64,000 bases of DNA. It comes from Longimicrobiales bacterium (lineage in GTDB: Bacteria > Gemmatimonadota > Gemmatimonadetes > Longimicrobiales > Gaopeijiaceae). Both the position numbers and the translations under genes were made by a program. Under the pieces are notes generated by a model. That model saw only the letters and a list, made by a program, of their open reading frames with translations. It made no database searches and was not told the DNA's origin. Shown piece after piece: positions 363-29,741 of this stretch (the first letter of the stretch is position 1; each line of letters opens with the position of its first letter). The stretch spans positions 736,001 through 800,000 of the forward strand of contig CAXXKM010000001.1 in assembly GCA_963664435.2 (NCBI GenBank), read 5' to 3'.

Positions 363-890
363 TCACCCGTCACCTTCTTGGACAGGATAGAGGCGACGTG
401 CCCTTTCCAATTGGCCACGTGCAGCCCTGTGGCCAACCTCTTCTAGGAACATCTCCCAAGGCCCCTCCTCGCTTCCGATTTCATCCCGGTCAGGTGTTGA
501 GATACCGATCTCGTTGAGATGGTAGGCGAGGGCCCGGATTTCCTGGCGGTGGTGTGGGTTGCTGGCAAGCCGGGAGAGCCGGTAGAGGTCTTGGGTCATC
601 GCAGAAAAGGTTGCGACTTCCTTAGCCTTCTTCTGCCTAGCCGGTAGCCGTTCTCGCAACCCCCAAATGGTACCTGCCAACCAAACCGATCCTCCTGCCG
701 CTCCACCAAGGGCAATGACCGGCAACAGCGCCTCTATGACAGGCCACATAGCCTTCAGCACGGACATGGCTCCGGCGAAATCCACCAGCAAGCCGAAGAA
801 CGTAGCGACAACTGCGACCGGCAACCACAACTGGCGCCAGGCTTCACGTTTCGGTTCCATTCGGTACATGGTATCGTCCCGTCCGGCCAC
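363..890 (-). CDS. Hypothetical membrane protein (two N-terminal hydrophobic helices)
   Basis: 175-aa ORF with hydrophobic segments LWLPVAVVATFFGLLV and LLPVIALGGAAGGSVWLAG, then a soluble C-terminus. Confidence 0.6.
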   Translation of the reverse strand: MAGRDDTMYRMEPKREAWRQLWLPVAVVATFFGLLVDFAGAMSVLKAMWPVIEALLPVIALGGAAGGSVWLAGTIWGLRERLPARQKKAKEVATFSAMTQDLYRLSRLASNPHHRQEIRALAYHLNEIGISTPDRDEIGSEEGPWEMFLEEVGHRAARGQLERARRLYPVQEGDG

Positions 891-1148
891 GTGACACCCC
901 CGGTCAGGTCGGCCGGCGCCGCGTGCTGACGGTTACGACCTCGGCGACGTCCGATTCTGGAACGATCGGTGCCGGCGCGGTAGGGAGCGCTACGGAACCA
1001 CCTCCGGCGGTTCCAGTCCCCGTTTCTGCCGCTGCCCCTTTTGGCGCGGCGGCCGCCGCCTTTCCAGGTCTGTCCAGAGCCTATCCGCGGATCGGAACCA
1101 ACTCGTCCTCCAAAACCCTACCCGATTCCTCACCCAACAACCGTAGCG

Positions 1149-2567
1149 CTAGGGCTCAAATCTGGTTTCCTCGGCCTCCACCACTGGGAAGGGAAAGCGA
1201 TCTCCCGTCCCCAGGTGCTCGCAATACAGGCACTCTGCAGTACATCCGGAACTCACATCGCTGTCCATCATCCCGGTTGCAAAGTGATGGGTCTGGACTC
1301 CCGGATTACCAATCCCGACAGGTTGCACGACCATGCTCAGACTCTGGCATATCATCATCCCGCTCGCAGACAGCGCGAACCCGAACACGTTCTCATTTCT
1401 TCGCAGCAAATGGTCATCGGGAAGCCGCTCGATGTACGTCGGATCGTCAAGCAAACCTTGCCTCTCAAGCGTGACGTTCGCCGGGTCGAACTGGGCGAGG
1501 CATTCCAAACATGCCCTTCCCGGCATCGCGACGTGTGCGCCCCATTCGGCCCCTCGCATCGACCCGTCCGGCTTGACGCGGACGTGCACCCCTCCGTCTA
1601 CGACCGGAATGTGGTGCGCGAATGCTACCATGTTGAGCACTTGCCTCGGCCAGGGCCGATCCACACAACTGAACAGTACGTCGCAATCCAGCGCCGCCCT
1701 CAAGCCGCTCTCCCTGGTCACCGGCTTCCTTCTCCGTCTCACGTCGACATCGTCGGCGGTCGCATGCTTGGACAGGTGCTCGCCCGCCACGTCCACCTTG
1801 AACCGACCAATGTCGTCCACGCTGGCGTGAAGAAGCCGATCCAGGTTGTGCTCCTTCACCGTGTCGAAGTCAATCAGGCTGATGGTCTCGACACCCATTC
1901 GCGCCAGGCTCTCCGCGACGATCGCGCCCACGCTTCCGACCCCGACAACGCCGCAATGGAGCCGGGCGAGCGTGTGCTGCTTCTTCTCGCCCCAAGCCGA
2001 ATAGGTCCTCTTCAGCACTTCCTTGAACCTCGGCTTCGGTGCTAGCTCGTCCATGAACGTCACGTCGAAATCATCCCCGACTACGCGAACGCTGCCACAC
2101 CACCGGCGTTCGTACTTCCGCCGCCCAACCCGGGTCCAGAAACGCCCGCTCAACGCCCCATCAGTTCCCATGGTCAGGCCCACGAGCGGCAGGCCCGTCT
2201 CCCCGAGTATCGAAGGCGCCGTGCTTCGCTCCGTGTCCACGTCCTCCCCACTCATCCCCTGCCACCCCGGCGTGAAATGACTGTGTAGCAGTGCGATGCC
2301 GGCGTTCCTCGACATCGCAGCCTCCGCCACCCGGTCCAGATAATTCGGCAGAAAGCTCGCGCCTCCATGCAGGCGCCTTTCGTTCGCGACGGGAAGAACA
2401 ACCTCCGTCAATACTGCGGTCGTCCGCGTCTCGCCGGTGCTCGGCTTCCACAGGACGAAACAGAGGTCCTCCTGCCGCTGCCCCTTCTTGATATGTTGCA
2501 GAAGGTGTCTTCTTAATGCAGCGGCGACTTCGGACGTCATCACCACGCTGTAGTCGACCGAGCTCAT
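1149..2567 (-). CDS. JAB/JAMM-like domain fused to ThiF/E1-like adenylating enzyme (Bub/Bil-type)
   Basis: N-terminal E..HSH-x8-S-x2-D. E1 motifs GVGSVG, DFD, HNLDR, CVD, CLEC and C-terminal CxxxCxxC. ATG 2567 overlaps the upstream stop (ATGA); 472 aa. Confidence 0.88.
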   Translation of the reverse strand: MSSVDYSVVMTSEVAAALRRHLLQHIKKGQRQEDLCFVLWKPSTGETRTTAVLTEVVLPVANERRLHGGASFLPNYLDRVAEAAMSRNAGIALLHSHFTPGWQGMSGEDVDTERSTAPSILGETGLPLVGLTMGTDGALSGRFWTRVGRRKYERRWCGSVRVVGDDFDVTFMDELAPKPRFKEVLKRTYSAWGEKKQHTLARLHCGVVGVGSVGAIVAESLARMGVETISLIDFDTVKEHNLDRLLHASVDDIGRFKVDVAGEHLSKHATADDVDVRRRRKPVTRESGLRAALDCDVLFSCVDRPWPRQVLNMVAFAHHIPVVDGGVHVRVKPDGSMRGAEWGAHVAMPGRACLECLAQFDPANVTLERQGLLDDPTYIERLPDDHLLRRNENVFGFALSASGMMICQSLSMVVQPVGIGNPGVQTHHFATGMMDSDVSSGCTAECLYCEHLGTGDRFPFPVVEAEETRFEP

Positions 2568-2956
2568 TGGCTCTCCCAGAGTCCCCGGACGTGCTCCATG
2601 TACCGCATCGCGTTTCTTGCGCCCGACGCCCAGTTGGGATGAGGTCTGCTCCAATACTGCCAGCCGTCTCCGAAATGCTTGCTGTGCCGTGTGCTCGAGT
2701 GAATGTGGCCGTGAGGGTGTGGACCGTCCGAGCGGTTTGCGTGGATCAGCTTGTGAACATGTGGACCGGATGGCGGCGACAGTGGAAAATCAGACGGTAC
2801 GACGATCCCGATGTCCACCTTCAGCCCCTCGTACTTGCCGTCAGACACACGGTACCTTGGGATCATGACGTGCTCGTCGCCCAACTCCTCGACCTCCATT
2901 TCGGCTACCCGCAACTGCTGGGCGAAAAGGGCTCCTCCGACGAGTATCTGGTTCAT
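2564..2956 (-). CDS. Prokaryotic E2/UBC-fold protein with no cysteine
   Basis: 130 aa with VPSDFPLSPPSGPH and GWQYWSR motifs of prokaryotic E2-like proteins; lies between the Ubl and E1 genes. Confidence 0.8.
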   Translation of the reverse strand: MNQILVGGALFAQQLRVAEMEVEELGDEHVMIPRYRVSDGKYEGLKVDIGIVVPSDFPLSPPSGPHVHKLIHANRSDGPHPHGHIHSSTRHSKHFGDGWQYWSRPHPNWASGARNAMRYMEHVRGLWESQ

Positions 2957-2959
2957 CAG

Positions 2960-3571
2960 CTATCCGTCGAGTTGGGAAACGCCCTTTGGCCCGGTGTAGT
3001 GGCCAACAAACGCCGCTCCCTCGTACAGGAAGAGCAACTCCTCACCCTTCTCGTACCTGATCCTCTCGCCGTCCTTGATCTGGACCAGGTAGTTGCTGTC
3101 AGGATCGAGACCACCCAGGCGGAGAATGGCGTTCGCCGACATCGGGTTTTCTGGCGCTTCATGTGGCTCGTGGTCGACCGTAATGGCGATGGGTGGCTCC
3201 CAGACGATCTCCACGCCGTCGAGGCACTTCTTGACCAGTGCCATCGCCTCCGCTGCCGCCTTGGGCGGCTCGCCCCCACCGTCCAGTTTCAGGAGAAACT
3301 GGAACGAGGTCACCGTCACGGGTGTGAAGCGGACCGCCCAGCCTCCCCGCGCCTTCTCGAACACCCAGGCCGCCTCATCCGGCTGCACCTTGTTGTCCTC
3401 CAACACCGGCGCCCCCGGCCCATCGGACTTCAAGCTCTCCGCCACCGACATCACCTCGTCCGTGCTCACGCCCTCCTGGCTTCGCAGCAGCGGGCCCATC
3501 TCGCCCAGCAGTTCGACGCCCCAGCAACGCTCCCCGGCTTCCGACACTCTTCCTATCTTCAACAACGACAT
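2960..3571 (-). CDS. Ubiquitin-like (multiubiquitin-type beta-grasp) protein with an N-terminal extension
   Basis: Strong RBS ggaggagg. C-terminal ~75 aa ITVDHEP..ANAILRLGGLDPDSNYLVQI..F..TGPKGVSQLDG resemble bacterial multi-ubiquitin domains. First gene of the E2/E1 operon. Confidence 0.75.
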   Translation of the reverse strand: MSLLKIGRVSEAGERCWGVELLGEMGPLLRSQEGVSTDEVMSVAESLKSDGPGAPVLEDNKVQPDEAAWVFEKARGGWAVRFTPVTVTSFQFLLKLDGGGEPPKAAAEAMALVKKCLDGVEIVWEPPIAITVDHEPHEAPENPMSANAILRLGGLDPDSNYLVQIKDGERIRYEKGEELLFLYEGAAFVGHYTGPKGVSQLDG

Positions 3572-3697
3572 CAGTCACCTCCTCCGTTGGTCACGTTTGG
3601 CCCGAGGCTTAGCGCCCTCGGGGCCACATCAAGGCTCTCGCGGCACGCTCGGGCTTCCTTCCACCTCGTTGGCGTGTCGTTCCCCTCGGCCGCGCCT

Positions 3698-3775
3698 GCT
3701 AATGTCTATTAGCGTGCTTGTGATGTCAAGCGCCCACCGAGCATGCTTGATCTCCTCGAGGTTCGGAGCTAGACT
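3698..3775. promoter_or_regulatory. Divergent sigma70-like promoters with a palindromic operator
   Basis: Minus strand: TTGACA (3729-3724)-N17-GACATT, overlapped by palindrome gctaat-gtct-attagc (3698-3713). Plus strand: TTGATC (3747)-N17-TAGACT (3770). Confidence 0.6.
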
Positions 3776-3837
3776 GAAGCTTGGGAAGCGCAGTCGAGGA
3801 AGACGTGCTTGGTGCCCCTGTCTCGGAGGGATGCAGC

Positions 3838-4185
3838 GTGACGCCCACACTCGGACAGTATCTTGCTTCCATCCGTGCAGACCGGAAGATGACCCTGCGT
3901 GAAGTAGAGGAGGCCACCGACAAAGGAGTCTCGAACGCCTACCTCAGCCAAATCGAGAATGGCAAGATTCGTAAGCCCTCACCCAATATCCTTCATTCAC
4001 TGGCCGAGATCTACGCGATCAGCTTCGAGAATCTGATGGCCAAGGCTGGCTATCTCATGCCATCCTCACGCCGCTCGGACGCTGAGCGCCACGGTCGCGT
4101 GGCGACGTTCGCCGAGTACAACTTGACGGAGGAGGAGGAATCGGAGTTGCTACGATTCCTCCAATTCATCCGCAGCAAATCGTGA
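3838..4185 (+). CDS. XRE/HTH transcriptional regulator (CapH-like)
   Basis: LGQYLASIR..TLREVEE..SNAYLSQIENG..PS HTH_3 signature. GTG 3838 has RBS ggaggg; TTG 3781 is an alternative start. Confidence 0.9.
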   Translation: MTPTLGQYLASIRADRKMTLREVEEATDKGVSNAYLSQIENGKIRKPSPNILHSLAEIYAISFENLMAKAGYLMPSSRRSDAERHGRVATFAEYNLTEEEESELLRFLQFIRSKS

Positions 4186-4188
4186 CCC

Positions 4189-5238
4189 ATGATTCGACCT
4201 GACGACAGTAGGCTCGACCCGGCGGATCTCCGCGCGGTCGAGGAGCAGGCCCACCGCCTCCTCGACCGCGCAGATGCTTGGAGCGAATTCCCGATCCCCG
4301 TCAACGATATTCTCTCCGCTGCCAAGGTCCACGTTGCCCGGACCACCGCTTTCGACCCGGCCGCAATCGTCTCTTACGTCAAGGACACGGCGGTCGACAC
4401 GGGCACCCTCGTTAAATCCGCGATCAGTAAGGTGTTCGGCGTATACGATGCCGGCGCCGCCGTCATCCATGTCGACCACACCCTTGTGGCAGCCAAGCAG
4501 ACCTTCCTCAAGCTGCACGAGGTGGGGCACCACGACCTTCCCACTCACCGCAAGATGTTCCGGTTCTTCCAAGACTGCCGGAAAACCCTGGACCCGACCA
4601 TCGCCGATCAGTTCGAACGTGAAGCCAACAACTTCGCGCGGTTCCTCCTGTTCAAGGGCCGTACCTTCGCTGAACACGCCGCCGATTACCCCTTCGAAAT
4701 CAAGACACCAATCACACTCGCCAGGAGATTCGGCGCTTCGGTTTACGCCTCTTTTCGTGAGTATGCGCGTACCAACCCGAGGCCGTGCCTCGTTCTTGTT
4801 CTCAACCAACCTGAAACCACCGAGAGTACCGGCGTCCGCGCGACGGTTCGACGCATCGAACCCTCACCCTCCTTCCTCACCCGCTTCGGCCGGCCGTCGA
4901 TCGAGACCGTTACTCCCGACCATCCGCTTTGGCCCGTCGTTCCCCTTGGCCGCAGAATGACCCAGCCGATGTCGCTGCCGTTCGCCGACTGCAACGGGCT
5001 ACAACACGAATGCGTCGCCGAAGCGTTCGATACTACGTACAACATCCTGATCCTGCTCTATCCTCTGAGCGCACTCAACACCAAGCGTATTCTCGTGCCA
5101 GCCGCAATAGACTCCGCCGAGCGGACGAGCTCCGTATCCGTTCCGCGCCAAGGCGTCCACGCATCTGGATCTACGGAACCTCTGCAGACGGTGGAAGGAA
5201 GGGCCGGCGCTGTTAGCGAAGCGCCGAAACCGGCCTGA
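4189..5238 (+). CDS. ImmA/IrrE-family Zn metallopeptidase (CapP-like)
   Basis: FLKLHEVGH (HExxH) and EREANNFA..LLF motifs; starts 3 nt after the HTH gene. Confidence 0.88.
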   Translation: MIRPDDSRLDPADLRAVEEQAHRLLDRADAWSEFPIPVNDILSAAKVHVARTTAFDPAAIVSYVKDTAVDTGTLVKSAISKVFGVYDAGAAVIHVDHTLVAAKQTFLKLHEVGHHDLPTHRKMFRFFQDCRKTLDPTIADQFEREANNFARFLLFKGRTFAEHAADYPFEIKTPITLARRFGASVYASFREYARTNPRPCLVLVLNQPETTESTGVRATVRRIEPSPSFLTRFGRPSIETVTPDHPLWPVVPLGRRMTQPMSLPFADCNGLQHECVAEAFDTTYNILILLYPLSALNTKRILVPAAIDSAERTSSVSVPRQGVHASGSTEPLQTVEGRAGAVSEAPKPA

Positions 5239-5704
5239 AGCAAATGGAGCGCGATACTCTATGACCGAAGGGCTACGACAACGGACTGGGAAGATTGCGA
5301 TCGCTCTCTCAGGGGGTGGTCACCGTGCCTCGTTGTTTGGACTCGGCGTGTTAATCTATCTCACCGACGCAAGTCGGAACCGAGATGTCGTGTCTATTTC
5401 TTCGGTGTCAGGTGGATCACTTACGAATGCCTGCCTGGCCCAGAGCGGAGACTACTCCAACCTCACACCGGAAGAGCTGGAAAGTCGCATCGTCCGACCC
5501 TTAGCTCGACGAGTGGCGCACCTCGGTACACTCTGGGCGTCCTGGACTACATGGATCTACGTCGTCACGCTATTTGCTGGAATCGCGGCGTTGGTCGCGC
5601 TTTACTGGCTCCCGGTGGATCTCCTCTCGCGCACGATCTATTTCGTTCTCGGGCTTACCGGTTGGGGCCTCCTCGCCGCCTTTCGAGGCAAGATGTGCGC
5701 CCTA

Positions 5705-6838
5705 GTGTAGTGTCGCATAAGTGGCAGGGTTAACGCATGGAGAAGCCGCTATCTTCCATGCATGCCTGCTCTGCGAAGGATTCGATTGCGACCCGGGGAC
5801 CGCAAGGAGCTCGAGGGATGGGTTCGAGCCCGCACGACCCCGCAGCGGCGCGTGGAGCGCGCCCGGATCATACTGGGTTCGGCCGGAGGTTTGCCGGGCC
5901 GGACGCTGGCCCGCGAGATCGGCGTCTCGCTGCCGACCGTGCAAAGATGGCTGGACCGGTACGACGAAGAGGGGCTCGCGGGACTTGAGGATCGGTCCCG
6001 CCCCGGTCGGCCGCGAAGTACGATCACGCCCGAAGTCGAGGCCGAGGTCGTGCGCCGCACGCTCGAGGAGAAACCGCCGCGGGGGACGCACTGGAGCACC
6101 CGCCTGATGGCCGAGGGCATGGGGCTGCATCACAGCCAGGTGGGGCGGATCTGGAACGCCCACGGACTGAAGCCCCACAGGGTGCGCTACTTCAAGCTCT
6201 CCACCGATCCCCGCTTCGTCGAGAAGCTCCGCGACGTGGTGGGGCTCTACGTGGCGCCGCCGGAGCGGGCGATCGTCTTCTCCTTCGACGAGAAGAGCCA
6301 GATCCAGGCCCTGGACCGGACCCAGCCGGGGTTGCCGCTCAAGAAGGGACGGGCGGGCACCATGACGCACGACTACAAGCGCCACGGGACCACGACGCTG
6401 TTCGCGGCGCTGGACGTCGCCACCGGAGAGGTCATCCACCAGTGTCTGCCCCGTCACCGGCACCAGGAGTTCCTCCGCTTCCTGCGCACCGTCGAAAAAC
6501 AATGCGACCCGGAACTCGACCTGCACTTCATCCTCGACAACTACGCCACCCACAAGCATGCCCGAGTGAAGGACTGGCTGGACCGGCACCCCCGAGTCCA
6601 CTTCCACTTCGTGCCCACCTCGTCCTCGTGGCTCAATCTCGTCGAGCGCTTCTTCTCCGAACTCACGCAGCGCCAGCTCAAACGCCTCGCCGTCCACAGC
6701 GTCGGCCAGCTCGTCCACGCGATCACGTCCTACATCGACCACAGGAACCGCGCCCCGAAACCCTTCGTCTGGACCGCCACCGTTCGCGACATCCTGGCTA
6801 AGGTCAACCGTGCCAACACCGCTTTAGCGGCACAACAC
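5705..6838 (+). mobile_element. IS630-family insertion sequence
   Basis: Imperfect terminal IRs (gtgtagtgtcgcataag / gtgttgtgccgctaaag on the opposite strand), TA duplication at 5703-5704 and 6839-6840, CTAG target. Confidence 0.92.
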
Positions 6839-6841
6839 TAG
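5762..6841 (+). CDS. IS630-family transposase
   Basis: N-terminal HTH; DDE motifs FDEKS, ILDNYATH, LNLVERFF; 359 aa, intact. Confidence 0.95.
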   Translation: MPALRRIRLRPGDRKELEGWVRARTTPQRRVERARIILGSAGGLPGRTLAREIGVSLPTVQRWLDRYDEEGLAGLEDRSRPGRPRSTITPEVEAEVVRRTLEEKPPRGTHWSTRLMAEGMGLHHSQVGRIWNAHGLKPHRVRYFKLSTDPRFVEKLRDVVGLYVAPPERAIVFSFDEKSQIQALDRTQPGLPLKKGRAGTMTHDYKRHGTTTLFAALDVATGEVIHQCLPRHRHQEFLRFLRTVEKQCDPELDLHFILDNYATHKHARVKDWLDRHPRVHFHFVPTSSSWLNLVERFFSELTQRQLKRLAVHSVGQLVHAITSYIDHRNRAPKPFVWTATVRDILAKVNRANTALAAQH

Positions 6842-8176
6842 CCTTCCGGCGGACCCTCTACTCGGCGGGCAGACGCCCCAAGCTGCTTCGCGAAATCGAA
6901 CGCAAGAATGTGCAGCACATCATTTGTGCGACAGACGTGCGCGCAGGGCACCATGTGTATTTCTCGGGTGATTTCGTGTGCTCCTATCGGCTCGGATGGG
7001 GGTGTCCCGCTGATTTCCGCTTGGCCGATGCCGTACAGTCATCGGCAGCATTCCCCGGTGCGTTCCCACCACGTTGGATACCCACCAAGCAGCACAGCTT
7101 TGCGGACGGTGCTCGAAAGACTCCCCGGTACATGGTGTTGTCAGACGGCGGAGTCTACGACAACATGGCCGAACAGTGGCCCATCGGAGTACGTTCCCGC
7201 CAGAGACGGTGGCCGACGCAGTCCGGTGCGCTCAAGGCACCCAATTCGCTAGTAGTCGTCGATGCGTCCGGACCGATGCGATGGGCATCCGTCCGGCGAC
7301 TGCGCGTGCCGGCTATTGGGGAGATTTTCGCGTTGCTCCGCGTCATCGGTGTGCTTTACGATAAGACGACAACCACACGCCGGAGCACCTTGGTGGACCG
7401 GTTTGATCGCGCGGCACGAAAGGGACGAGGCCTCGAAGGGGCTCTTGTCATGATCAATCGTAGTCCGTATCGGACTGCGGACTACTTCAGCAAGCGAACC
7501 GAGACTTGGCCTGATCGGGCCAAGCGCGCGACCCGCGTACTCCAGGTGCTCGGCGACGAGAACCGTGAGAGGTGGGAAAACCTCGCTGACGAGAATCTCC
7601 GCGTGAAAACCACACTCTCGCGCCTTGGAGGCGAGGTGGCCGCCGGTCTTCTCTACCACGGATATGTGTCAGCAATGGCCAACTTGCACGTTATCCTTGG
7701 CTTCCCTCTGCTCCCGGTTCCGCCTGTTGACCGCTTTAGGCGGATGGTCGCTAGGTAAGTAGGCCAATGAGCGCGGCGGTCTTCTCGGATGTGCGCGCAT
7801 CAGTCAATCTAGGATTGCCCCGCGCCCAAGTGTCTTCAACACAAGCCAACCGAGATTCGCCCCACACGTCGGCCCGGCGCTGAGGCGCCAAGACATCCTT
7901 GTGTTTTGCCCCTTCGCTCCATGCGGGTTGGCGCAGATCGTCCGATTCTGGCTGCATGTTCACGCAGCCTATCTTCAGCGATCAACCTCATGCACTGGGG
8001 ACGAACGATCTGCCCTTCTTCCCGTTGTCCAACCAAATGTTGGCTGTCGGTGACCGGATCCCGCACGGGTGGTCGGCCTTGGAGAGGATCCCCAGTGCTC
8101 AGTGCAGCTAGCTAGGTCAGCGTTTTGGGCCGTGTGCGACCCCGCCAGGTACCTGGTCAAGGGGGAGTGCGGGAAG

Positions 8177-9013
8177 AGCCCTGCGGAGCGGGTGCGGATG
8201 ATCGATCGGGACGGACCGTTGAGTCTTTCGAGGCAGTGTGCGCTGCTGGGGGTGAGCCGGTCGTCGCAATACTACCGGCCGAAGGGGGAGAGCGCGGAGA
8301 ATCTGGCGCTGATGCGGCGCATGGACGAGCTGCACATGGCGTATCCGTTCTACGGCAGCCGGCAACTGATGCGGCATCTGCGCCGCGAGGGCGTCACCGC
8401 GGGCCGGCACCGGATCCGGCGGCTCATGCGCATGATGGGGATGGAGGCGACCTACCGGTGGCCGCGCACGAGCGTGGCGAGCCCGGAGCACCGGGTCTTT
8501 CCGTACCTGCTGCGCGGCCTGACGATCTCGCGGGCGGACCACGTGTGGTGCGCGGACATCACCTATGTCCCTGTGACGCAGGGCTTTTTCTATCTTGTGG
8601 CCGTGATGGACTGGGCGACCCGGCACGTGCTCGCGTGGCGGCTGTCGAACACGATGGACGCGTCGTTCTGCGTCGAAGCCCTGGACCACGCGCTGGGCTG
8701 GCGGGCTCCGGAGATCCTGAACACCGATCAAGGCGCCCAGTTCACCAGCGAGGCGTTTACGGACCGGGTGCTGGCGGCGGGCGTGACGTTCTCGATGGAC
8801 GGCCGGGGCCGCTTCCTCGACAACATCTTCATCGAACGGCTGTGGCGGTCGCTGAAGTACGAGGCGGTGTACTTCCACGAGCTGCGGGACGGCCTCGACG
8901 CCAAACGCATCATCGGCTCGTGGATCGACTTCTACAACGAGGTGCGCCCACACTCGTCGCTGGACGGACGGACGCCGGGCGAGGCTTATCGCGAGCGCGC
9001 GGAGGCGTGGTGA
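8177..9013 (+). mobile_element. IS3-family transposase OrfB (OrfA and left end missing)
   Basis: RQCALLGVSRSS.YY, FYGSR, WCADITY, NTDQGAQF, IERLWRSLKYE, YNEVRPHSSL. Confidence 0.85.
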
Positions 9014-9264
9014 GGACGATCCGGCGCAACGCCACCCAACCGACGCAACGACGCCTGCGAGCGTGGGAATTGCCGCACGCCGGTTCCCTCCGTCCACCCG
9101 TCGGCAGCGAGTCCCGACGGGAAGACGGAGGTTATGTTCAAACCGGGCTCGGGGGAAAGCGTCCAGACCGACCGGCTCGGGACCCCGCCGGTCCCCGGTC
9201 AGACGCGCTCGGCCCGGGCTCGAGCGAGATCACCGAGGGCTTTGGAGACCATCGGAATCCACCT

Positions 9265-9382
9265 TAAGCGGCAATCGAACGTCCCGCCGGGCTCGAAGTC
9301 CAGATGCAGGTCCAGGCCGCGCTTCGCCGCGTCGAACTCCGTCCGCTTCGCCCGCCACGGCCACCCCGAACAGCGAGGAGCC
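9265..9382 (-). mobile_element. ISL3-family remnant (terminal repeat plus short N-terminal transposase fragment)
   Basis: Minus strand ggctcctcgctgttcggggtgg resembles ISL3 ends, followed by PWRAKRTEFDAAKRGLDLHLDFEPGGTFDC. Confidence 0.55.
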
Positions 9383-9432
9383 AGTGTTATTCCCTTGGTC
9401 GAACGACTGCGGCGTTCTTCCAACCCTTCCAC

Positions 9433-11715
9433 CTATCTTGGGGTCAGCGCCAGCGGCCTGGTCCCCTGCTCGGCGAAGATGACCTCAATTCCCATGTCGG
9501 TTGCAATCACCATCAACGCGGGCGCTGAGTCCATCTCCATAACAGCGGCCAGCCAGTCGATCTGGCGAATATCGCGCAGACTGGGCTGACCGGTTGCGCC
9601 CGGAGGATGGGAATGCCATTCACCAACGTAGCGCACCTGTCCCGATGTTCGTCTGCGTATCCGGTCGATGTATTCTCCTACCCCCCGCACGCCTCGCTCG
9701 AAGCTTCCAATATTCTCGATACTATCATCAGGTGCCGCTGCCGCATGCACCAAGCAGATCGACCTCGAGAGAACATCAACTACTCCAAACAGCATGCCCC
9801 CAGTCTCAACCGGGAGTTTCTCTTCGCGCATCGCGAGTATCTGCCGTACAACACCGGCATCCGTCGTGATCTTCCAATCATTCTTCCCAAGGTAGCGAGC
9901 TACTTGATCGGGTGGAGCTGCATCGAGGGTCACCTCGCCGTTCGAAGCAAGCGTCCACACAGCGAGAACCGCTTCTGGTTGGTCTACCGCGTCACCCAGT
10001 TTCATGGCCACCAGCCCTGCCAACACTGACACGTTTGACTGCGGGAAGCGATTGCTGATCGCTCGACAACCACCTGTGTAGGCGAATGTTTCAACCGACC
10101 GGTCCAGATGACTCTTGAGGCTCCCAGTTTCCAACACAAGACGATAATACTGTGCCTCCAAGTCGCGTAATGTGAGGGCCCGGTCGGCGGGCTCCGCCAG
10201 CAACACGGCGGCTTCGCCTGACGGATTGAAGAACGTACTGATTCGGCGAGCTCGCCCATTATGATCCGAGATTCTGCGCGCGGCGCCAATAGACGCTGTC
10301 GCGTCAACAATCAGATCCGCTGCGGACATCGCCGACGAGATCGACCTGCCGGGCTCACCACCTGCAAATAGATCATTCGGGAGCGCGCACGCGATTGCCT
10401 CTCGCCCCGCGACCACAGCGTTGAGGTGGTCAGCAACGACATGTGCCTTGTGGTAGCCAATTCGATCATTGTGCCCGATATGGCGGGCGAGGTTGTGGGG
10501 CAGCATTCGGTCGGGATCGATCACCGTCCAAGAGAATCGGCCTTCTCGGGCCAAGCAGTCCGCAATCGCGGAACCCAACGCTCCCGCGCCGATCAAGACA
10601 GCGTGCCGCGAATCCGGCTCGTCCCGCCCAGCAAGGCGCGCAGCTAGGTCACGCTCAAACTCAAGATGCACCTCCGCACACTCGATGGCCAGCGGCTTCA
10701 AGGCCGAAGCGTCCGCAACCTTGGCACCGATGCGCTTGAAGTATCCGACTGTTCCATCCTGCTGTTGCCTATCGTCTTTCAGTGCAATACCGAGCACGAC
10801 ACCGATTTTCCCGACTGGCTGCTCGCTGACAAAGGCCCGCAAATCTGCACCGTCCTGTAGATCGCCGGGCGATGCACGCACCGGCATTTCAACCATTACG
10901 GCAAGAAGTGAGTTGAGTAGCCACCGCGCGCCCCCATCGGCGAGCAAGTTCGAAAGAAGGCGGTTCAGGTCATCAACAAGGACAATTCCGTTCTCTCCTA
11001 GTGTGGTCGACAGTTCATACAAGTTGACAGGCATATGTCTGAGTCGCCGATTCCCTTGCGCCGGCAATCTGTATGTCATGACACAGACTGGCAATCGTAG
11101 TCTGTCGGTGCCGTCGCAGTCCTGCAACCGCTTGACCCGCAGGATGGGGCTGTGCTCATGCTCCTGTTCGGTTATCAGGACCTCCGTGGTCTCTTCGTCC
11201 CATACGGACCGCTCGGTTACGAAGCTGAACTCACTGAGCGAGAACACCGGGTCGAGGGGTTGGCGAGTGTCGTGTAGCTTGCCGACCGATGCACGCTCGA
11301 ACCACGAAAGGACACGAGTGAGTAATTCAGCCGGCGTCCATCCCAAACTGGCTTCCGCCCACGGACGGTCATCAATACAGATGGCCGCGGGATGTCCCCG
11401 GGGAACAAGCATTTGATGCTCCGTTTCTGGAAAGTCGTCACGTAGCATCACCATCAACGGCATGCTCCCCCTCCGAAAGAGCACGCCAATCCGTTCGACG
11501 CGGCGTATTGGATGGACTGGTTCCTGTGGGGAGCCCGTGCAGATTTCAAGAATCACGAGTTCTCCGCCATCATTCCGGCGAAGCTCGACTACATCTGCTA
11601 CTCCATCGCCGTAGCGTTCCACAAACTTCACCACCGCCCCGGCATGCGGATTGCCGAGGCCATTCCAATCGGTGACCAACTCGGCATAGTTGGCCACCCA
11701 TCTCTCCGTCCTCAA
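9433..11715 (-). CDS. E2-E1(ThiF)-JAB triple fusion (Cap2/Cap3-like; 6A-MBL type)
   Basis: E2: DFP..H..AICID..W. E1: GAGALGS, PHNLARH, DATAS, GGC. JAB: ETGG..YVGEWHSHP..PSLRD. Start is TTG 11715 or GTG 11697. Confidence 0.9.
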   Translation of the reverse strand: MRTERWVANYAELVTDWNGLGNPHAGAVVKFVERYGDGVADVVELRRNDGGELVILEICTGSPQEPVHPIRRVERIGVLFRRGSMPLMVMLRDDFPETEHQMLVPRGHPAAICIDDRPWAEASLGWTPAELLTRVLSWFERASVGKLHDTRQPLDPVFSLSEFSFVTERSVWDEETTEVLITEQEHEHSPILRVKRLQDCDGTDRLRLPVCVMTYRLPAQGNRRLRHMPVNLYELSTTLGENGIVLVDDLNRLLSNLLADGGARWLLNSLLAVMVEMPVRASPGDLQDGADLRAFVSEQPVGKIGVVLGIALKDDRQQQDGTVGYFKRIGAKVADASALKPLAIECAEVHLEFERDLAARLAGRDEPDSRHAVLIGAGALGSAIADCLAREGRFSWTVIDPDRMLPHNLARHIGHNDRIGYHKAHVVADHLNAVVAGREAIACALPNDLFAGGEPGRSISSAMSAADLIVDATASIGAARRISDHNGRARRISTFFNPSGEAAVLLAEPADRALTLRDLEAQYYRLVLETGSLKSHLDRSVETFAYTGGCRAISNRFPQSNVSVLAGLVAMKLGDAVDQPEAVLAVWTLASNGEVTLDAAPPDQVARYLGKNDWKITTDAGVVRQILAMREEKLPVETGGMLFGVVDVLSRSICLVHAAAAPDDSIENIGSFERGVRGVGEYIDRIRRRTSGQVRYVGEWHSHPPGATGQPSLRDIRQIDWLAAVMEMDSAPALMVIATDMGIEVIFAEQGTRPLALTPR

Positions 11716-12845
11716 CAGCCGGCCCGCGGCGTCTCCGAGGCTACGGACGTGGTGACCATCGAAGCCCCAATAATCGCCGCGACACCTTGCGCCGTGATCT
11801 TGAAGCCGAAGGGCCGAGGCCTGGCCTCTGAGGGCTTCTCCATTGTCACGACGAAGTCGCCGTCAAGGGCCTCCGCTACGGATCGGTAGTAGTTGGCCGC
11901 CTGGCGGTGTGGCGGTTGCTTATCCTTATCGTCTTCAGTCCCCTTCTCGGGTATCTTCCAGCTCGTCGACACCATTACCCCTCGCTCGCGACCCTGGGTT
12001 TCGAAGAGCCACTCTACGTCCGGCGTAGCCTTGGTCTGGTCTTCGCCACGCTCGGAGCCCAAGGCCTTGTACGAGCAGTGATGGCAGATCTTCAGCAGAT
12101 CCCAGAGCAGCCGATCCTCATTGCCGTGGCTTTTTGTCAGTGAGACAATCGCTGAGATGGTATCGTGGTTGACATCCGACCCGAGTAACAGATAGGAGTC
12201 ACGCCCTCCCTCACGGAAGGTAACCTGCATGACAATTGACTCTTCGTTCCGGTCGATGACCGTGTTCTCGTCAGATCGCCACGCGAATGGACAATGAGCA
12301 AAGAACTCCGCCTGGGCCGACTCCTCCTTCTTATAACCAGGAACCAAGGAGCCGGCGGTGACGATCAAGTGCTTGTGTTTCTCGTAGTCCAACTCGTTAT
12401 CCTCCATCCACTTCTTCATCCGCTTTGGCCGGGAAAAGACTCGCACACCTTTCCCTTTCTTGAAGCGGTGCCGTGCCTCGGCCCGAATGAGCCTCGCATC
12501 GCCCTTGAGATTCTCTTCCAACACGGCTGCTGCAGGGACCCACAGTTCATCAATCTTGATCCGATCGTCACTCTGGTACTTCTTTGCGTGTTCAAGCCAG
12601 AAGAACTCGCCGAATCCCTTGCAATGATCGCTGTCGATGTGGGTGATGCACACTGCGTCGTAGTGGGTGCGGCCGGCCCTACGGAGGTCGAGCTTTAGTT
12701 CCTTCGGAAGATCGCACCGAAGATCTCCGTTGTCCTGTGAATTGCGTGTGTTAGCGTAGTCCACGAGTATTTTGCGGCCATCTGCCAGGTCGATACGCTG
12801 CGTATCGGCGTTTCCGAGCGGAAAGAAGTGGATTGCTGCTGTCAT
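11712..12845 (-). CDS. Metallo-beta-lactamase-fold (ComEC/Rec2-like) hydrolase/nuclease
   Basis: FFPLGNAD, THIDSDH, GSD, HHCS motifs; ATG 12845 (377 aa); C-terminus ETPRAGC. Confidence 0.85.
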   Translation of the reverse strand: MTAAIHFFPLGNADTQRIDLADGRKILVDYANTRNSQDNGDLRCDLPKELKLDLRRAGRTHYDAVCITHIDSDHCKGFGEFFWLEHAKKYQSDDRIKIDELWVPAAAVLEENLKGDARLIRAEARHRFKKGKGVRVFSRPKRMKKWMEDNELDYEKHKHLIVTAGSLVPGYKKEESAQAEFFAHCPFAWRSDENTVIDRNEESIVMQVTFREGGRDSYLLLGSDVNHDTISAIVSLTKSHGNEDRLLWDLLKICHHCSYKALGSERGEDQTKATPDVEWLFETQGRERGVMVSTSWKIPEKGTEDDKDKQPPHRQAANYYRSVAEALDGDFVVTMEKPSEARPRPFGFKITAQGVAAIIGASMVTTSVASETPRAGC

Positions 12846-13027
12846 TTCGTGCTCCTCGGGGTTCCCGATGAAAAGTGAGATTGATTGTGTTGACGATATG
12901 TCTCGCCGAGCATCGGTTCCTTTCGGTTGCTCAGCAAACAGCGATCTGTAACGGGACAATTGTCCGAGTCTTGTCGGATGTAGAACATGTCACCGCTACC
13001 GACGACTGGGGCATTCACGATGCTCAA
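12842..13027 (-). pseudogene. Degenerate N-terminal remnant of a different MBL-fold gene (61 aa)
   Basis: (M)SIVNAPVVGSGDMFYIRQDSDNC resembles the VGxGD start of ComEC-like MBLs. TTG overlaps the upstream stop and TGA overlaps the downstream ATG. Confidence 0.5.
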
Positions 13028-13746
13028 GTGCGGGTCTCCAAGTCGAGTGCGGCCTCCAGGAGGTATCGAGCGTAGCGGTCGGCGGTGATGCGCACGGTCG
13101 CCGAACGAACCCCGATCAGCCAACCGACAGCAACACAGGTGTTAAGAAGAGTAGTGACGAAGGGTACCGGTAGAATGACACCGTCGGTGTGCCATCCGCG
13201 AAGGAGGGACCATCCCGAAGCCACCAGCGCGAGGATGGTGATGGCAAGACCAACTGGTTTCAGGCCGAGCAGATTTCGCCGAAATCCGTACTCGATGTTG
13301 CCCTTGTAGACGAGATGGAAACGTTCAGAGTCCCGGGTCCGCCGACGGATATCATCAACAGCTGATCCGTAGAGTTCGAGTGCCCGCTCTCGGTCCGCCT
13401 TTTCCTCTTCGGACGTAGGGACCCGAAGCCCCAACGCCCGCAATTGGGCATGGATCCGCGCGCGAGTGGCAGGGTTGAATTGCTCGTTGTCGTGTCGCAG
13501 GAATCGCGTTGTGGGCGGACCGCCCCAGGATTCCCACAAAGCCGGCTCCAGCCGCTTTCCGAAGTCCGAGGCGACTTGGCTCATGAAATACGAGAGCGGC
13601 AGGAAGACGATGGCGGACGCCCCGGCGAGTGGCAGGTTCAGCCCTTCAGGGAGAGTCGCGGCGACCGCTAGCACGACCGGTGCGGCCGTAAGGTACACTG
13701 GTAAAACCCGTGCTCCCCAAGTGTAGCTATCGAGCGTGAAGTCCAC
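13024..13746 (-). CDS. Uncharacterised ~4-TM membrane protein
   Basis: 240 aa; two N-terminal and two C-terminal hydrophobic helices around a soluble loop (WGGPPTTRFLR..NIEYGFRRN). Confidence 0.8.
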   Translation of the reverse strand: MDFTLDSYTWGARVLPVYLTAAPVVLAVAATLPEGLNLPLAGASAIVFLPLSYFMSQVASDFGKRLEPALWESWGGPPTTRFLRHDNEQFNPATRARIHAQLRALGLRVPTSEEEKADRERALELYGSAVDDIRRRTRDSERFHLVYKGNIEYGFRRNLLGLKPVGLAITILALVASGWSLLRGWHTDGVILPVPFVTTLLNTCVAVGWLIGVRSATVRITADRYARYLLEAALDLETRT

Positions 13747-16103: not shown

Positions 16104-17219
16104 TCATCCACCCCGGATGAGCGGTGTCGGCTGGAAGATGTCTCCGCAATAGGCCGCGAGCGTGGCGTCTGCGACCTGATGTCCGTGAGCGAACAAGAGA
16201 TCGTACTCGCGTATCGTGCACCTCCGCAGAGTGGTGCCGAAGCGGGCTGCCTGTTGGACCTCCGAGTCGCGGAGAGAATCGTCACGGATGTGTTCCACCA
16301 TGGCGGGGCGGTTGGCATCGCGGTAGATACGCGCCTCGGTGTTGCCGAATCTCAGATACGCCCCGGCACCTGGATTCCGCTGGAGATGCGAGACGACCGC
16401 ACGGGCGCGGAGACCTCGAACCTGATCCGTCGCGATGTTGAGTAGGCGCCTCGGTGCGCGAAGCCTGCGTGTCTCGGACCCGAGCCAAGCAGATGCATCC
16501 GAGACGATCAGGAAGTCGAATCCATCCCTGAAATGGCCAGCCGGTTTGAACAGCGCTTCCACACCGAGATTGTCGTAGACACCACCGTCCCAGAGCCTGA
16601 GGGTGGGGAATTCAGGTGCGTGGGGTCGCGGCGTCTGCTGTCCGTCAAAGGCAAACCACTCGAACCGACTGGTATGGAGTTTCAGGGAACCCACCAGTCC
16701 GGGAACTGCGGACGAGGCGGCGACCGCCTGGGCGAGCGGTAGCTGTGGCGACCCGACGTAGCCAGCGACGTAGTCGCCCATGCGCTGCTTCATGAAACGC
16801 CAGTTCTTGCCGGTCTCGTAACATGTGGCATTGATGATCCACCTGGGATTGTTCGGCAAGTCGGACAACAGGCCGCCCAAAGACCAGCGGTCCTGAAGAG
16901 CTCCGGCCAACGCACCCGCGCGACCATGGCGAAGCACCCATGGACAGAAAAACATGTGTTGCAGACAGGCGCGGTCGAGCCCATGGGCGGTGAGTAGCCG
17001 ACGAGCCCTCGGGATGGTGTTTCGCAGAATGGCGTCGCTACCGGGCCAGGTCTTGTCGGAGCAGGCCCAGACCAGAGCTACCGCGAGGCTACCGCCCGAT
17101 ACGGTCGAGAGAAACGTGATGTTCTCGATCAGCGATTGCCGGGCGAGTCGCGCGAGCGCACCGAGATGGAAGATGGTTGCTCGGACGCCGCCGCCCGACA
17201 GTGCGAGGCCTATCCTCAT
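16104..17219 (-). CDS. Patatin-like phospholipase
   Basis: GLALSGGGVRA, TVSGGS, WDGGVYDN; ATGA overlap with the upstream MBL gene; ends IRGG. Confidence 0.9.
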   Translation of the reverse strand: MRIGLALSGGGVRATIFHLGALARLARQSLIENITFLSTVSGGSLAVALVWACSDKTWPGSDAILRNTIPRARRLLTAHGLDRACLQHMFFCPWVLRHGRAGALAGALQDRWSLGGLLSDLPNNPRWIINATCYETGKNWRFMKQRMGDYVAGYVGSPQLPLAQAVAASSAVPGLVGSLKLHTSRFEWFAFDGQQTPRPHAPEFPTLRLWDGGVYDNLGVEALFKPAGHFRDGFDFLIVSDASAWLGSETRRLRAPRRLLNIATDQVRGLRARAVVSHLQRNPGAGAYLRFGNTEARIYRDANRPAMVEHIRDDSLRDSEVQQAARFGTTLRRCTIREYDLLFAHGHQVADATLAAYCGDIFQPTPLIRGG

Positions 17220-18067
17220 CCGTCGTACTGCTCGATGCTGAAACCGCTAGAGGAAACGATGACCTGCACGCGTCCACCGCGTTTGGTGGTGTAGTACTTG
17301 ACAGTATTTCCCGAGGGAGACCGAACGCCGAGGGGATCGCTCCGAAAGGCTGGGTGTGTCTCGGAAGCCCCCCAAACGTCACTGATGAACGTGGCATGCG
17401 GCTGAACGGCGTCCATCATGCCCTTGCAGTAGCCGCTCCTGCGACCGTGATGCGGCGCAACAAGGAACCGGCATTCCGCATCTTCGATCAGGGCGAGGAA
17501 GCTCGATTCGTAGCGCCGCCAAAGCTCTTGCCACCCTGGGGGCTCGATGTCTCCCGGACAAACGAACAGCACGCCTCGGTAGAGCAACATGACAACAACG
17601 GACGTGTTGTTGCCTTCGATACTGGGGCCGTTCACGCGGGTTCCGTGGTCGAGTGAACCGACCGCGTATCGGACACCGCCATTGCGTTCGGGGTTGGTCG
17701 GGCTGCGGTGGCGGGGTACCGGGGAGGTGTACCGGCTGTGAAGATCGGCGAAGTCTTTCTGGTACTGGAAGGTGCGCTGTCCGAACATGTCAGTGGCCGG
17801 CAGCGACTTGTTGCGGTGCAACACTCGAGGGTCGCCGAAGGTTGCCCTGAACTGAGGCAGATCTTCGACGTGATCCTTGTCGGGATGGCTGATGACAAGG
17901 TAGTCGATCTCGGACACCCGGTACGCGCGCCCGACGTGTTCGCTCGGCGAAAACTCTGGCGTGCGGCCGAGATCGATCCAATGGTTGGATCCGTTGGGCG
18001 TCTTGATCCAGATGGACACCCCGTGTCCCACATCCCAAACGGTGAACATCAGTTGGTGGTCGGTCAT
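17216..18067 (-). CDS. Metallo-beta-lactamase-fold (ComEC/Rec2-like) hydrolase
   Basis: WDVGHG, SHPDKDH, NNTS, PGDIE, APHHGRRSG. Confidence 0.88.
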   Translation of the reverse strand: MTDHQLMFTVWDVGHGVSIWIKTPNGSNHWIDLGRTPEFSPSEHVGRAYRVSEIDYLVISHPDKDHVEDLPQFRATFGDPRVLHRNKSLPATDMFGQRTFQYQKDFADLHSRYTSPVPRHRSPTNPERNGGVRYAVGSLDHGTRVNGPSIEGNNTSVVVMLLYRGVLFVCPGDIEPPGWQELWRRYESSFLALIEDAECRFLVAPHHGRRSGYCKGMMDAVQPHATFISDVWGASETHPAFRSDPLGVRSPSGNTVKYYTTKRGGRVQVIVSSSGFSIEQYDG

Positions 18068-28034: not shown

Positions 28035-29741
28035 CTATGCGAAATCCGAGCGCCACAGGTGGACTGCTCGCTTTGCAAGTTGGCGTTGGCGTTCATCCAG
28101 AAATGACAGCGTCCACTCTTCGGGAGCGATCTCCGAAATCGCCCTGGTCATCTCGTACTGACTCTCGTCGTATGCGGCCAACTTGCGCTCGTAGCTTCCG
28201 TTGCCGACAGCCCGGTTGAGCTTGGCTTCGAGCAAAGTGAGGTTGCCGATCCGGTTGGCAGCACCTTGCTGAGTCGCTCTCGGAAACCCTTCCTCCCACT
28301 CGGAGTCCGGGTTTTCGGGGAGTATGTGCTCGATCGTCCCGGGATCGCGCTCCGAATCGCACGGCCTGCCGGAGGCGTCCTGCTCCAGTCGTGCCAGGAT
28401 GTGCTTGACCAGTCGCTTGCGAGGGCCCCGGGCCGGAATGGCCAGGTATGCAAAGGCGCTGGCCATTTGTCTGTCGTTTACGAAAATCGGTCGGAGTTCC
28501 TCGAAGAGCTCTCGCGGCCCTCTGGCCGTTCCGTCCACGACTGCCTTGCTCGCCCGATGGTATACGGGCTCCAATTCGTTGGTATTCAACCTGCTCACTA
28601 CCGTGTACCGGAATGCCACCACCGAAACAAGCTTCAACGTCCGTACAAAGTCAGGCCGCGACCATTTCTCCCAGACCACAAACAATAGCGGCATCATCTG
28701 GGTAACACGAAAGAGCTTGAGTTCCACAACGTAGGGCCGCGCATCCGGTGTCTCCACCCAGTATTCGTGGGATGGATCGAGTACAGCCGCGAACAACTCC
28801 GCGCGCCTTTCCAGAACTCTCAACAAGCTGAACACGTCACGGGCAGATTGGTACCGGTCGCGGACGATCTTGAACAGGCGACGACGGCGCACCTGAGGTT
28901 GCTCGCAAAGCAAGTGGTACCGAAGGAGATCGGGCACGCGCTTCTGATCGACGGTATCCGCTATGCGTTGCCATCCTCGCAGCATCGAGGGACGGTCCGC
29001 GTCCGATGCTTTCGCGAAAATGTAGTTCTTGAGGAGATCGGTCGTGGTCAACTCAAGCCCGCGCGCGTTGAGAGTCTCAAAGACGGTATAGGCGTTCAGA
29101 GCATCATCAACAGTGATCAGGATGAAGACCAAGTGCCGGGCGACCGTCTCGGACATCAAGCTGGCGAGCGCTCTCCCGTCGTTCTTGACGGCATCCAAAC
29201 TTCGAATCTGCTTGCCGAAGTACTGGAAGCAGCCCCAGAGCAGCTTGTTGGAAGGCCTCAAGCCGCGAGGGTTGCCAGGCTCTTCAAGCTGAACCAGGTA
29301 GTCCTGATAGAAGCCGTTGTCCGTCTCGTTCAGGTTGAGCCGGCTTGACTCAACGAGTGATGCCGGATCCTTCTCTCCAATGAAACGGTTGCGGAGCTCC
29401 CGGGCACGAGCCTGGTTCCCTTCTGCGTCTACCCCGGACGCAGCCAAATCGAGAAGGGCGTCGATCACCGCCAAGGCAAGTACGCTCAGGGTGGCGAGGC
29501 GCTGTTGCCCGTCTATGACGACGAATCTACGGTCCGACTGCGCCTCGACGACCAACGCGCCCATGTAGTGCCGGCTATCTTCCGGGGAAAGCATGTCGGC
29601 AATATCGTTCCACAGGTCTTCCCACTGCTCCTGGCGCCAGGAATAGTCGCGCTGGTAAGGAGGAACGAAGTACGCCCTTCCGTTACCGATCAACTCCTGG
29701 TAGTTGACGGTCCGTGTGTCCAACAGCGTGGTTCTGGCCAT
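28035..29741 (-). CDS. DUF262 + DUF1524 protein (GmrSD-like type IV restriction endonuclease)
   Basis: PYQRDYSW, DGQQR, FETLNARG; C-terminal TIEHILP..IGNLTLL..N. Confidence 0.9.
   Translation of the reverse strand: MARTTLLDTRTVNYQELIGNGRAYFVPPYQRDYSWRQEQWEDLWNDIADMLSPEDSRHYMGALVVEAQSDRRFVVIDGQQRLATLSVLALAVIDALLDLAASGVDAEGNQARARELRNRFIGEKDPASLVESSRLNLNETDNGFYQDYLVQLEEPGNPRGLRPSNKLLWGCFQYFGKQIRSLDAVKNDGRALASLMSETVARHLVFILITVDDALNAYTVFETLNARGLELTTTDLLKNYIFAKASDADRPSMLRGWQRIADTVDQKRVPDLLRYHLLCEQPQVRRRRLFKIVRDRYQSARDVFSLLRVLERRAELFAAVLDPSHEYWVETPDARPYVVELKLFRVTQMMPLLFVVWEKWSRPDFVRTLKLVSVVAFRYTVVSRLNTNELEPVYHRASKAVVDGTARGPRELFEELRPIFVNDRQMASAFAYLAIPARGPRKRLVKHILARLEQDASGRPCDSERDPGTIEHILPENPDSEWEEGFPRATQQGAANRIGNLTLLEAKLNRAVGNGSYERKLAAYDESQYEMTRAISEIAPEEWTLSFLDERQRQLAKRAVHLWRSDFA

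What the first reader, a model, noticed from the sequence alone, without database searches (positions are those of the whole stretch)
1149..7758. Stress-regulated bacterial ubiquitination-like locus wired to a membrane phospholipase
Seen: a coupled operon Ubl -> E2-fold -> JAB-E1 on the minus strand, divergent from HTH -> HExxH peptidase -> TM-patatin (3- and 22-nt gaps). Known: Bub/Bil-type operons conjugate Ubls, CapH/CapP pairs derepress defence genes after DNA damage, and patatins are cell-killing effectors in CBASS. Inference: one six-gene system in which Ubl conjugation and a membrane-anchored lipase are co-induced, with no cyclase. I do not know of a described Bub/Bil system with this effector.
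Basis: partly seen in the sequence, partly recalled or inferred. Interest (0 to 1): 0.85.

Follow-up and report, generated by a model that had tools for sequence, protein, structure and literature searches.

The report
Bub operon beside unrelated broken lipase
A known kind of bacterial ubiquitin-like tagging operon with its DNA-damage switch sits next to a transposon-broken membrane lipase gene, but comparison with relatives shows the lipase belongs with a different neighbouring defence system, so the proposed six-gene unit is most likely a chance junction in a defence island.

Summary
All six genes and the quoted gaps are real. The left five are a type I Bub (6e)-like operon (Ubl, cysteine-free E2, JAB-E1) with divergent capH-capP, a published layout. 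This branch lacks bubE (0 of 22 loci) and its Ubl probably matures to a Ser end. The patatin is not its partner: none of 21 other Bub loci of the phylum, 5 plasmid loci or 1 metagenome locus carries one, including three 89-92% identical relatives, and none of 80 loci of this patatin family carries Bub. The patatin instead travels with MBL-fold hydrolases (50 of 80; controls 0 of 36, 0 of 20, 214 of 5000). Six of its seven closest homologues are the overlapping third gene of 6A-MBL operons, and related patatins are fused to the 6A-MBL ligase. The window has a 6A-MBL system 1.7 kb away. The 22-nt gap arises from a lost capP stop at a module junction, and IS630 splits the lipase between its catalytic Ser and Asp. 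Verdict: mosaic island; a ligase-lipase link exists, but for 6A-MBL, not Bub.

The parts
1149..2567 (-). JAB peptidase-E1 fusion (BubCD-like), 472 aa; JAB E33/H95/H97/D109 and crossover-loop Y378; C-terminal tail about 35-40 aa shorter than in close relatives
   Evidence: (best PDB hit Citrobacter BubCD, profile E 1e-37)
2564..2956 (-). Cysteine-free E2 (BubB-like), 130 aa; invariant S103 and H66
   Evidence: (best fold match BubB 9eav_D, Z 9.8, rmsd 3.5, 116 aligned)
2960..3571 (-). Ubl, 203 aa: unassigned N-terminal ~125 aa plus one beta-grasp-like domain ending GVS-QLDG
3716..3749 (.). Two conserved inverted-repeat elements in the shared promoter region; candidate CapH operator (inferred)
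   Evidence: present in the window and both relatives aligned
3838..4185 (+). capH-like XRE HTH repressor (GTG start chosen from the RBS and relatives)
4189..5238 (+). capP-like HExxH peptidase; ancestral stop lost, 29-codon run-on across the module junction (about 5157-5187)
5261..5704 (+). Patatin, N-terminal piece (SGGGxRA loop, SxSGGS serine, hydrophobic segment)
5705..6838 (+). IS630 element (transposase 5762-6841), TA target duplication
6841..7758 (+). Patatin, C-terminal piece (DGG aspartate motif)
9433..11715 (-). 6A-MBL cap2_3 (E2-E1-JAB); outside the finding but the kind of system this patatin family accompanies
   Evidence: NF058523, 603 bits, cut-off 320
11712..12845 (-). 6A-MBL MBL-fold enzyme, ends PRAG-C
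   Evidence: (NF058524, 423 bits, cut-off 220)

Best explanation
The span is a junction of two modules in a defence island. Module 1 (about 1055-5157) is a bubE-less, split type I Bub operon under CapH/CapP. Inferred working: DNA damage activates CapP, which cleaves CapH bound at the inverted repeats; the operon is expressed; the JAB domain trims the Ubl's QLDG tail to expose the clade's conserved ...VS end; the E1 adenylates it and passes it via Tyr378 to Ser103 of the E2 as oxyesters, then to an unknown target. Module 2 (from about 5187) is a membrane-anchored patatin whose family partners are MBL-fold defence hydrolases, typically as third gene of a 6A-MBL operon, where it most likely acts as the membrane-damaging effector. 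Here it is detached from such an operon, faces a different 6A-MBL copy, and is inactivated by IS630. Shown: gene content, conserved residues, neighbourhood counts, junction, insertion. Inferred: all biochemistry, regulation and any anti-phage role.
For: Three relatives 89-92% identical in JAB-E1 have no patatin within 10 kb and no match to it genome-wide; DNA homology to the two that keep capHP stops at 5148-5157. L050, with an 87%-identical intact patatin, is homologous from 5187 on, carries a 97%-identical convergent 6A-MBL, has no capHP/Bub in the locus and only a 44%-identical JAB-E1 on another contig. PF01734 lies near none of 21 other Bub loci, nor is a patatin found in 5 plasmid loci and L133. 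MBL motif within 4 kb of 50 of 80 patatin loci against 0 of 36 distal zones, 0 of 20 Bub locus files, 214 of 5000 random windows. Six of the 7 closest patatins overlap the stop of a cap2_3 gene. Of 8 cap2_3 genes in 401 genomes, 6 are fused to a patatin, 1 has it next door, 1 is the window's. Bub chemistry: E33, H95, H97, D109, Y378 invariant in 22 of 22; S103 and H66 in 18 of 18; no Cys in the E2 or in E1 residues 357-393. Complex model of the Ubl domain with JAB-E1: 0.81 against best control 0.00 (mark reached by 116 of 157 solved and 2 of 215 mismatched pairs; runs agree in at least 96% of contacts, partner pLDDT at least 90), with V198 next to D109 in the JAB site; like complexes are solved, so this may be likeness.
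Against: The patatin lies on the capH-capP strand 22 nt after capP with no terminator-like site between, so co-transcription before the IS arrived is possible. One other Bub locus (L027) has a TIR gene behind capP, so that position can hold defence cargo. The window's cap2_3 is only 30-32% identical to the ones operonic with this patatin and is convergent, so the local partnership is not shown. 30 of 80 patatin loci show no MBL motif (18 of 54 with full 4-kb flanks). The context of the closest intact homologue P0018 (93% identical) could not be fetched. Only 80 of 218 patatin loci were returned, the 8 cap2_3 genomes are one family, and 3 of the Bub loci lie near contig ends.
Confidence: 0.8

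Rival explanations
1. Co-regulated cargo: the patatin was captured behind capP and was induced with the capH-capP transcript after DNA damage, as an independent lipase effector sharing the switch with Bub but not interacting with it, until IS630 broke it.
For: Same strand, 22-nt gap, no terminator-like site; TIR gene behind capP in L027; in L051 an HTH plus CapP-like pair faces an MBL-cap2_3-patatin operon.
Against: Seen once: of 10 loci with an HExxH gene beside the Bub operon (read by eye) only the window has a patatin; the 74 bp upstream of the patatin is shared with L050, where no capP precedes it; the close gap comes from a lost stop.
Confidence: 0.13
2. One reading: one six-gene system in which Ubl conjugation and the lipase act in one pathway.
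For: Physical adjacency in this genome, also in public contigs (one contig covers 900-5729 without differences); absence of bubE leaves room for another component.
Against: 0 of 27 other Bub-type loci with a patatin and 0 of 80 patatin loci with Bub; bubE is missing from all 22 loci of the clade regardless of patatin; the gene is broken here.
Confidence: 0.05
3. The patatin is an ordinary lipid-metabolism enzyme with no defence role, and its neighbours are incidental.
For: Many distant homologues have housekeeping genes on one side; no PADLOC model matches P0019.
Against: MBL linkage in at least five phylum-level groups by record title; the linked MBLs resemble defence MBLs (LmuA, Avs1a, PDC-M48B); overlap with and fusion to cap2_3.
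Confidence: 0.07

Closest known systems
Type I Bub operon (6e / DUF6527; Ye, Gong, Chambers, Corbett, PMC11601596; Iyer, Burroughs, Aravind 2006, PMC1779556)
   Same: Ubl, cysteine-free E2, JAB-E1 fusion in this order; crossover-loop Tyr and E2 Ser; CapH+CapP upstream (168 of 544 operons in the paper); separate Ubl and E2 genes occur in its Table S1 and in the 2006 description.
   Different: No bubE; E2 has Ser plus an upstream His (H66) rather than the S-x-H plus Asp set of BubAB fusions; Ubls of the clade end xTPV[SA], here VS-QLDG, not at a conserved Gly.
CapH/CapP regulators (Lau et al., 10.1101/2022.04.27.489752)
   Same: XRE HTH plus HExxH metallopeptidase, upstream of and opposite to the controlled operon.
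   Different: CapP here has a 29-residue run-on; operator and cleavage untested.
6A-MBL system (operon 6a of PMC1779556; NCBIfam NF058523, NF058524)
   Same: The window holds a copy at 9433-12845; the patatin's closest homologues are third genes of such operons.
   Different: Described as two genes without a lipase in the passages I read; here the patatin is convergent, separated by an IS3 remnant, and broken.
CBASS with CapV patatin effector
   Same: Patatin fold with Gly-rich loop, catalytic Ser and DGG Asp; defence-island setting.
   Different: No cyclase in the span; this patatin has an internal hydrophobic segment and no PADLOC match; activation by a nucleotide signal is not indicated.
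Bil type I/II (10.1101/2023.09.26.559546)
   Same: Separate Ubl and E2; JAB trims the Ubl tail; CapH/CapP in some operons.
   Different: Bil has a separate JAB and a cysteine-dependent IAD-AAD-CYS E1; only a weak BilD match here (E 2e-6).

Membership tests
Type I Bub | JAB-E1 fusion homologous to BubCD with intact JAB site | tested here: met
Type I Bub | E1 crossover loop without Cys, with invariant Tyr | tested here: met
   Y378 in 22 of 22; no Cys in 357-393; the profile alignment puts a BubCD Tyr at this column, though the loop aligns with a gap
Type I Bub | Cysteine-free UBC-fold E2 with invariant Ser | tested here: met
   correspondence of S103 to BubB S333 inferred from the aligned end points only
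Type I Bub | E2 His two residues after the Ser plus Asp (stated for BubAB fusions) | tested here: not met
   S+2 is Pro; the invariant His is H66
Type I Bub | Beta-grasp Ubl | tested here: met
   7 of 20 aligned domains hit Multi_ubiq, best E 6e-5, not the window's own; top PDB hits are bacterial Ubls at E 0.04-0.14; complex model
Type I Bub | Ubl exposing a conserved C-terminal Gly | tested here: inconclusive
   Window and 3 relatives end QLDG; 16 other aligned Ubls end in VS, VA or VV; model places V198 at the JAB site
Type I Bub | bubE (DUF6527), said to be in all Bub operons | tested here: not met
   No PF20137 in G000 (96% complete) and none beside any of 22 loci in 19 genomes
Type I Bub | Ubl conjugation through oxyesters | not testable with these tools
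   needs biochemistry
CapH/CapP | HTH and HExxH peptidase, divergent from the operon | tested here: met
CapH/CapP | ssDNA-activated cleavage of CapH and de-repression | not testable with these tools
   needs experiment
CBASS | CD-NTase cyclase | tested here: not met
   no cyclase among the ORFs scanned in 363-13746
Bil | Separate JAB and cysteine-dependent multidomain E1 | tested here: not met
6A-MBL with patatin (for this copy) | Patatin co-oriented directly after, or fused to, cap2_3 | tested here: not met
   convergent and 1.7 kb apart here and similarly in L050; met in 6 of 7 closest homologues

The most novel reading that the evidence does not exclude
This patatin family is a dedicated membrane effector of MBL-hydrolase defence modules, recruited as a separate third gene, as a fusion to the 6A-MBL E2-E1-JAB ligase, or paired with an MBL alone; and the adjacent bubE-less Bub branch conjugates a Ubl ending in Ser, which the JAB domain exposes here by removing a four-residue propeptide. 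Both would give testable handles on two systems whose outputs are unknown.
Probability: 0.5. Interest if true: 0.6.

Novelty: new variant of a known kind. Interest (0 to 1): 0.36.

Why it matters
As proposed (Bub with its own lipase effector) it would have supplied the missing output of Bub operons, for which no phage protection has been shown (PMC11601596, discussion). The comparison removes that claim. What remains useful: a common Bub branch without the supposedly universal bubE and with non-Gly Ubl ends, and a strong genomic link between this patatin family and MBL/6A-MBL systems that I did not find in print but that earlier reports of this scan had already noted.

Tried and rejected
In-frame TAG between Ubl and E2 as a broken BubAB fusion or read-through: rejected, the stop after QLDG is in 4 of 4 close loci. 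Fold of the whole Ubl: pLDDT 38, unusable; a recalled likeness of its N-terminal part to DUF1508/YegP found no Pfam support and stays untested. E2 profile against PDB sequences did not find BubB; Foldseek gave no match at E 0.001 or better, BubB at rank 28. Patatin profile: no PDB match; Atlas only says patatin. Viral contig scans with patatin and JAB-E1 alignments: nothing. Plasmid search with P0019: nothing. Metagenome scan with CapP: 1 locus only. No sigma-70 promoter match. Sequencing runs: no RNA holder listed; in 4 runs of contigs no joint skipping the IS630 was listed, which does not prove that no intact allele exists, and depth differences were not used. The frame check had an off-by-one error; one search replaces it. 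My MBL profiles were built partly from the loci scanned, so the count quoted is the motif count (motif recalled, not from a call); Pfam confirmed 5 of 7 such neighbours tested. The Ledvina preprint gave no real MBL passage. No tree was built.
Full report
Observation. Domain scans give ThiF plus weak Prok-JAB, Prok-E2_E, no family for the 203-aa ORF, HTH_3/capH, Peptidase_M78/capP and Patatin in two pieces. The patatin is interrupted by a 1134-bp IS630 with a TA duplication, one of 9 near-identical copies in the genome; the two pieces are in frame, total 453 codons and match intact homologues at 87-93%. The catalytic serine motif is in the first piece and the DGG motif in the second, so the gene is inactive as it stands (inference). 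An IS3 remnant and a 6A-MBL system above both NCBIfam cut-offs follow at 8069-12845. Close homologues come from Gemmatimonadota and Rhodothermales assemblies by their record titles.

The left module. The JAB-E1's best solved relative is Citrobacter BubCD and the E2 model's best fold match is BubB (Z 9.8, rmsd 3.5, 116 aligned). In 22 homologues from 19 of 401 genomes of the phylum the JAB residues E33, H95, H97, D109 and Tyr378 are invariant; in 18 E2s S103 and H66 are invariant, and the window's E2 has no cysteine. This is the oxyester chemistry described for Bub (PMC11601596, parts 1-4 of 7 read, and part 1 of 7 of Table S1; the supplementary PDF and the journal version were not seen). That paper finds CapH+CapP with 168 of 544 operons and lists operons with separate Ubl and E2 genes; PMC1779556 (section 14 read) described the stand-alone E2 between Ubl and JAB+E1 in 2006. 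So the five-gene layout is known. Two departures: no bubE in this genome or beside any of the 22 loci, although the paper says all Bub operons have it (its set was selected on DUF6527); and the Ubl ends. Sixteen of 20 aligned Ubls end in VS, VA or VV, and the window's four-member clade adds QLDG after VS. A complex model scored 0.81 against a best control of 0.00 (mark reached by 116 of 157 solved and 2 of 215 mismatched pairs; at least 96% contact agreement, partner pLDDT at least 90) and docks the tail in the JAB site with V198 touching D109. That fits trimming after S199, but like complexes are solved and this is a model. Two inverted-repeat elements at 3716-3749 are kept in both relatives aligned and are the likely CapH operator (inference from 10.1101/2022.04.27.489752, passages read).

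Is the patatin part of it? From the Bub side: three relatives at 89-92% identity have type I restriction genes, an OLD-family nuclease or an AAA/subtilase pair beyond the module, and no match to this patatin in their genomes. No Pfam patatin lies near any of the 21 other loci (positions compared); none is found in 5 of 10 plasmid hits opened or in the one metagenome locus. From the patatin side: of the best 80 of 218 GTDB loci none has a Bub JAB-E1, E2 or Ubl. DNA homology to the Bub relatives ends at 5148-5157 and homology to the patatin locus L050 begins at 5187; the capP stop of L025 is a sense codon here, which produces the 22-nt gap.

What the patatin does travel with. An MBL metal-binding motif lies within 4 kb in 50 of 80 loci (42 on the same strand; 36 of 54 with full flanks), against 0 of 36 distal zones of the same loci, 0 of 20 Bub locus files and 214 of 5000 random windows of this genome. 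The link spans at least five phylum-level groups by record title, though kin are not independent. Six of the 7 closest homologues start within the stop of a 6A-MBL cap2_3 gene; the seventh, L050, has it convergent on a 6A-MBL 97% identical to the window's, with no Bub in the locus. In the same 401 genomes, 8 have cap2_3 (7 over the cut-off, all one family): 6 carry a related patatin (25-32% identical to P0019) fused at the C-terminus, 1 has the separate gene (a duplicate of one of the six above), and 1 is this window (Pfam confirmed 4 of 4 fusions tested). A search with one fusion listed 120 of 1100 hits, all 120 with a patatin domain. The window has a second patatin-small MBL pair at 16104-18067. 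Against a local partnership: the window's cap2_3 is only 30-32% identical to the operonic ones, and 30 of 80 loci show no MBL motif.

Mechanism. Most likely (0.8) two modules meet here. Bub branch: damage, CapP cleaves CapH, operon on, JAB trims the Ubl, E1 Tyr then E2 Ser carry it to an unknown target; with no BubE, removal would fall to the JAB or not occur. Patatin: a membrane-anchored lipase that in intact relatives probably serves MBL-based defence as the killing arm, by analogy with CBASS CapV; how it is switched on is unknown, and here it is dead. All of this is inferred from sequence and published work on relatives. Co-induction as passive cargo of the capH-capP transcript (0.13) and the six-gene pathway (0.05) remain as rivals.

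Literature and novelty. 'Patatin' does not occur in the main text of PMC11601596, PMC1779556, the Bil and CapH/CapP preprints or PMC13373217. Searches listed no paper on a patatin with 6A-MBL or Bub; the passages read in PMC13276650, PMC12419801, PMC13069673, 10.64898/2025.12.08.692795 and 10.1101/2025.09.30.679545 do not describe it. The primary 6A-MBL paper (van den Berg 2024) and the journal versions of the Bub and Cap2 papers were not available, and their supplements may bear on this. 10.1101/2024.11.21.623966 was read in part 1 of 5. Earlier reports of this scan already note both the bubE-less Bub branch and 6A-MBL with patatin; they are unchecked notes, and my counts were made independently. 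Verdict: observation confirmed, central inference not supported; new variant of known kinds; interest 0.36.

Noticed in passing
window 16104-18067 (-): Second patatin (no match to the first beyond 24-39%) coupled to a small MBL that matches PADLOC PDC-M48B (E 1e-39); same pair in L050.
   Followed up: partly
window 9433-12845 (-): Complete 6A-MBL system; the MBL ends PRAG-C where four relatives end PRAG, suggesting JAB trimming of one residue.
   Followed up: partly
L136-L141: E2-E1-JAB-patatin single-chain fusions, usually after an MBL gene; large family.
   Followed up: partly
L050 15378-18877 and L052 3090-6590: Another conserved cluster next to 6A-MBL: small ORF, ThiF, JAB-containing protein and ComEC-like MBL.
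   Followed up: no
G000:C2:209765-211042 (L042): Second, 42%-identical bubE-less Bub-like operon in the same genome, Ubl ending APVA.
   Followed up: partly
L027 6487-7692: CAP12-type TIR gene directly behind capP of a Bub operon.
   Followed up: no
window 1149: JAB-E1 is 472 aa against 506-512 aa in three close relatives; a Trp-rich tail is lost.
   Followed up: partly
window 28035-29741 (-): Protein matching PADLOC HEC-06 (E 1e-199), a further defence gene.
   Followed up: no
window 13024-13746 (-) and 363-890 (-): Two unassigned hydrophobic ORFs; the first has distant homologues near patatin-MBL clusters in L053 and L054.
   Followed up: no
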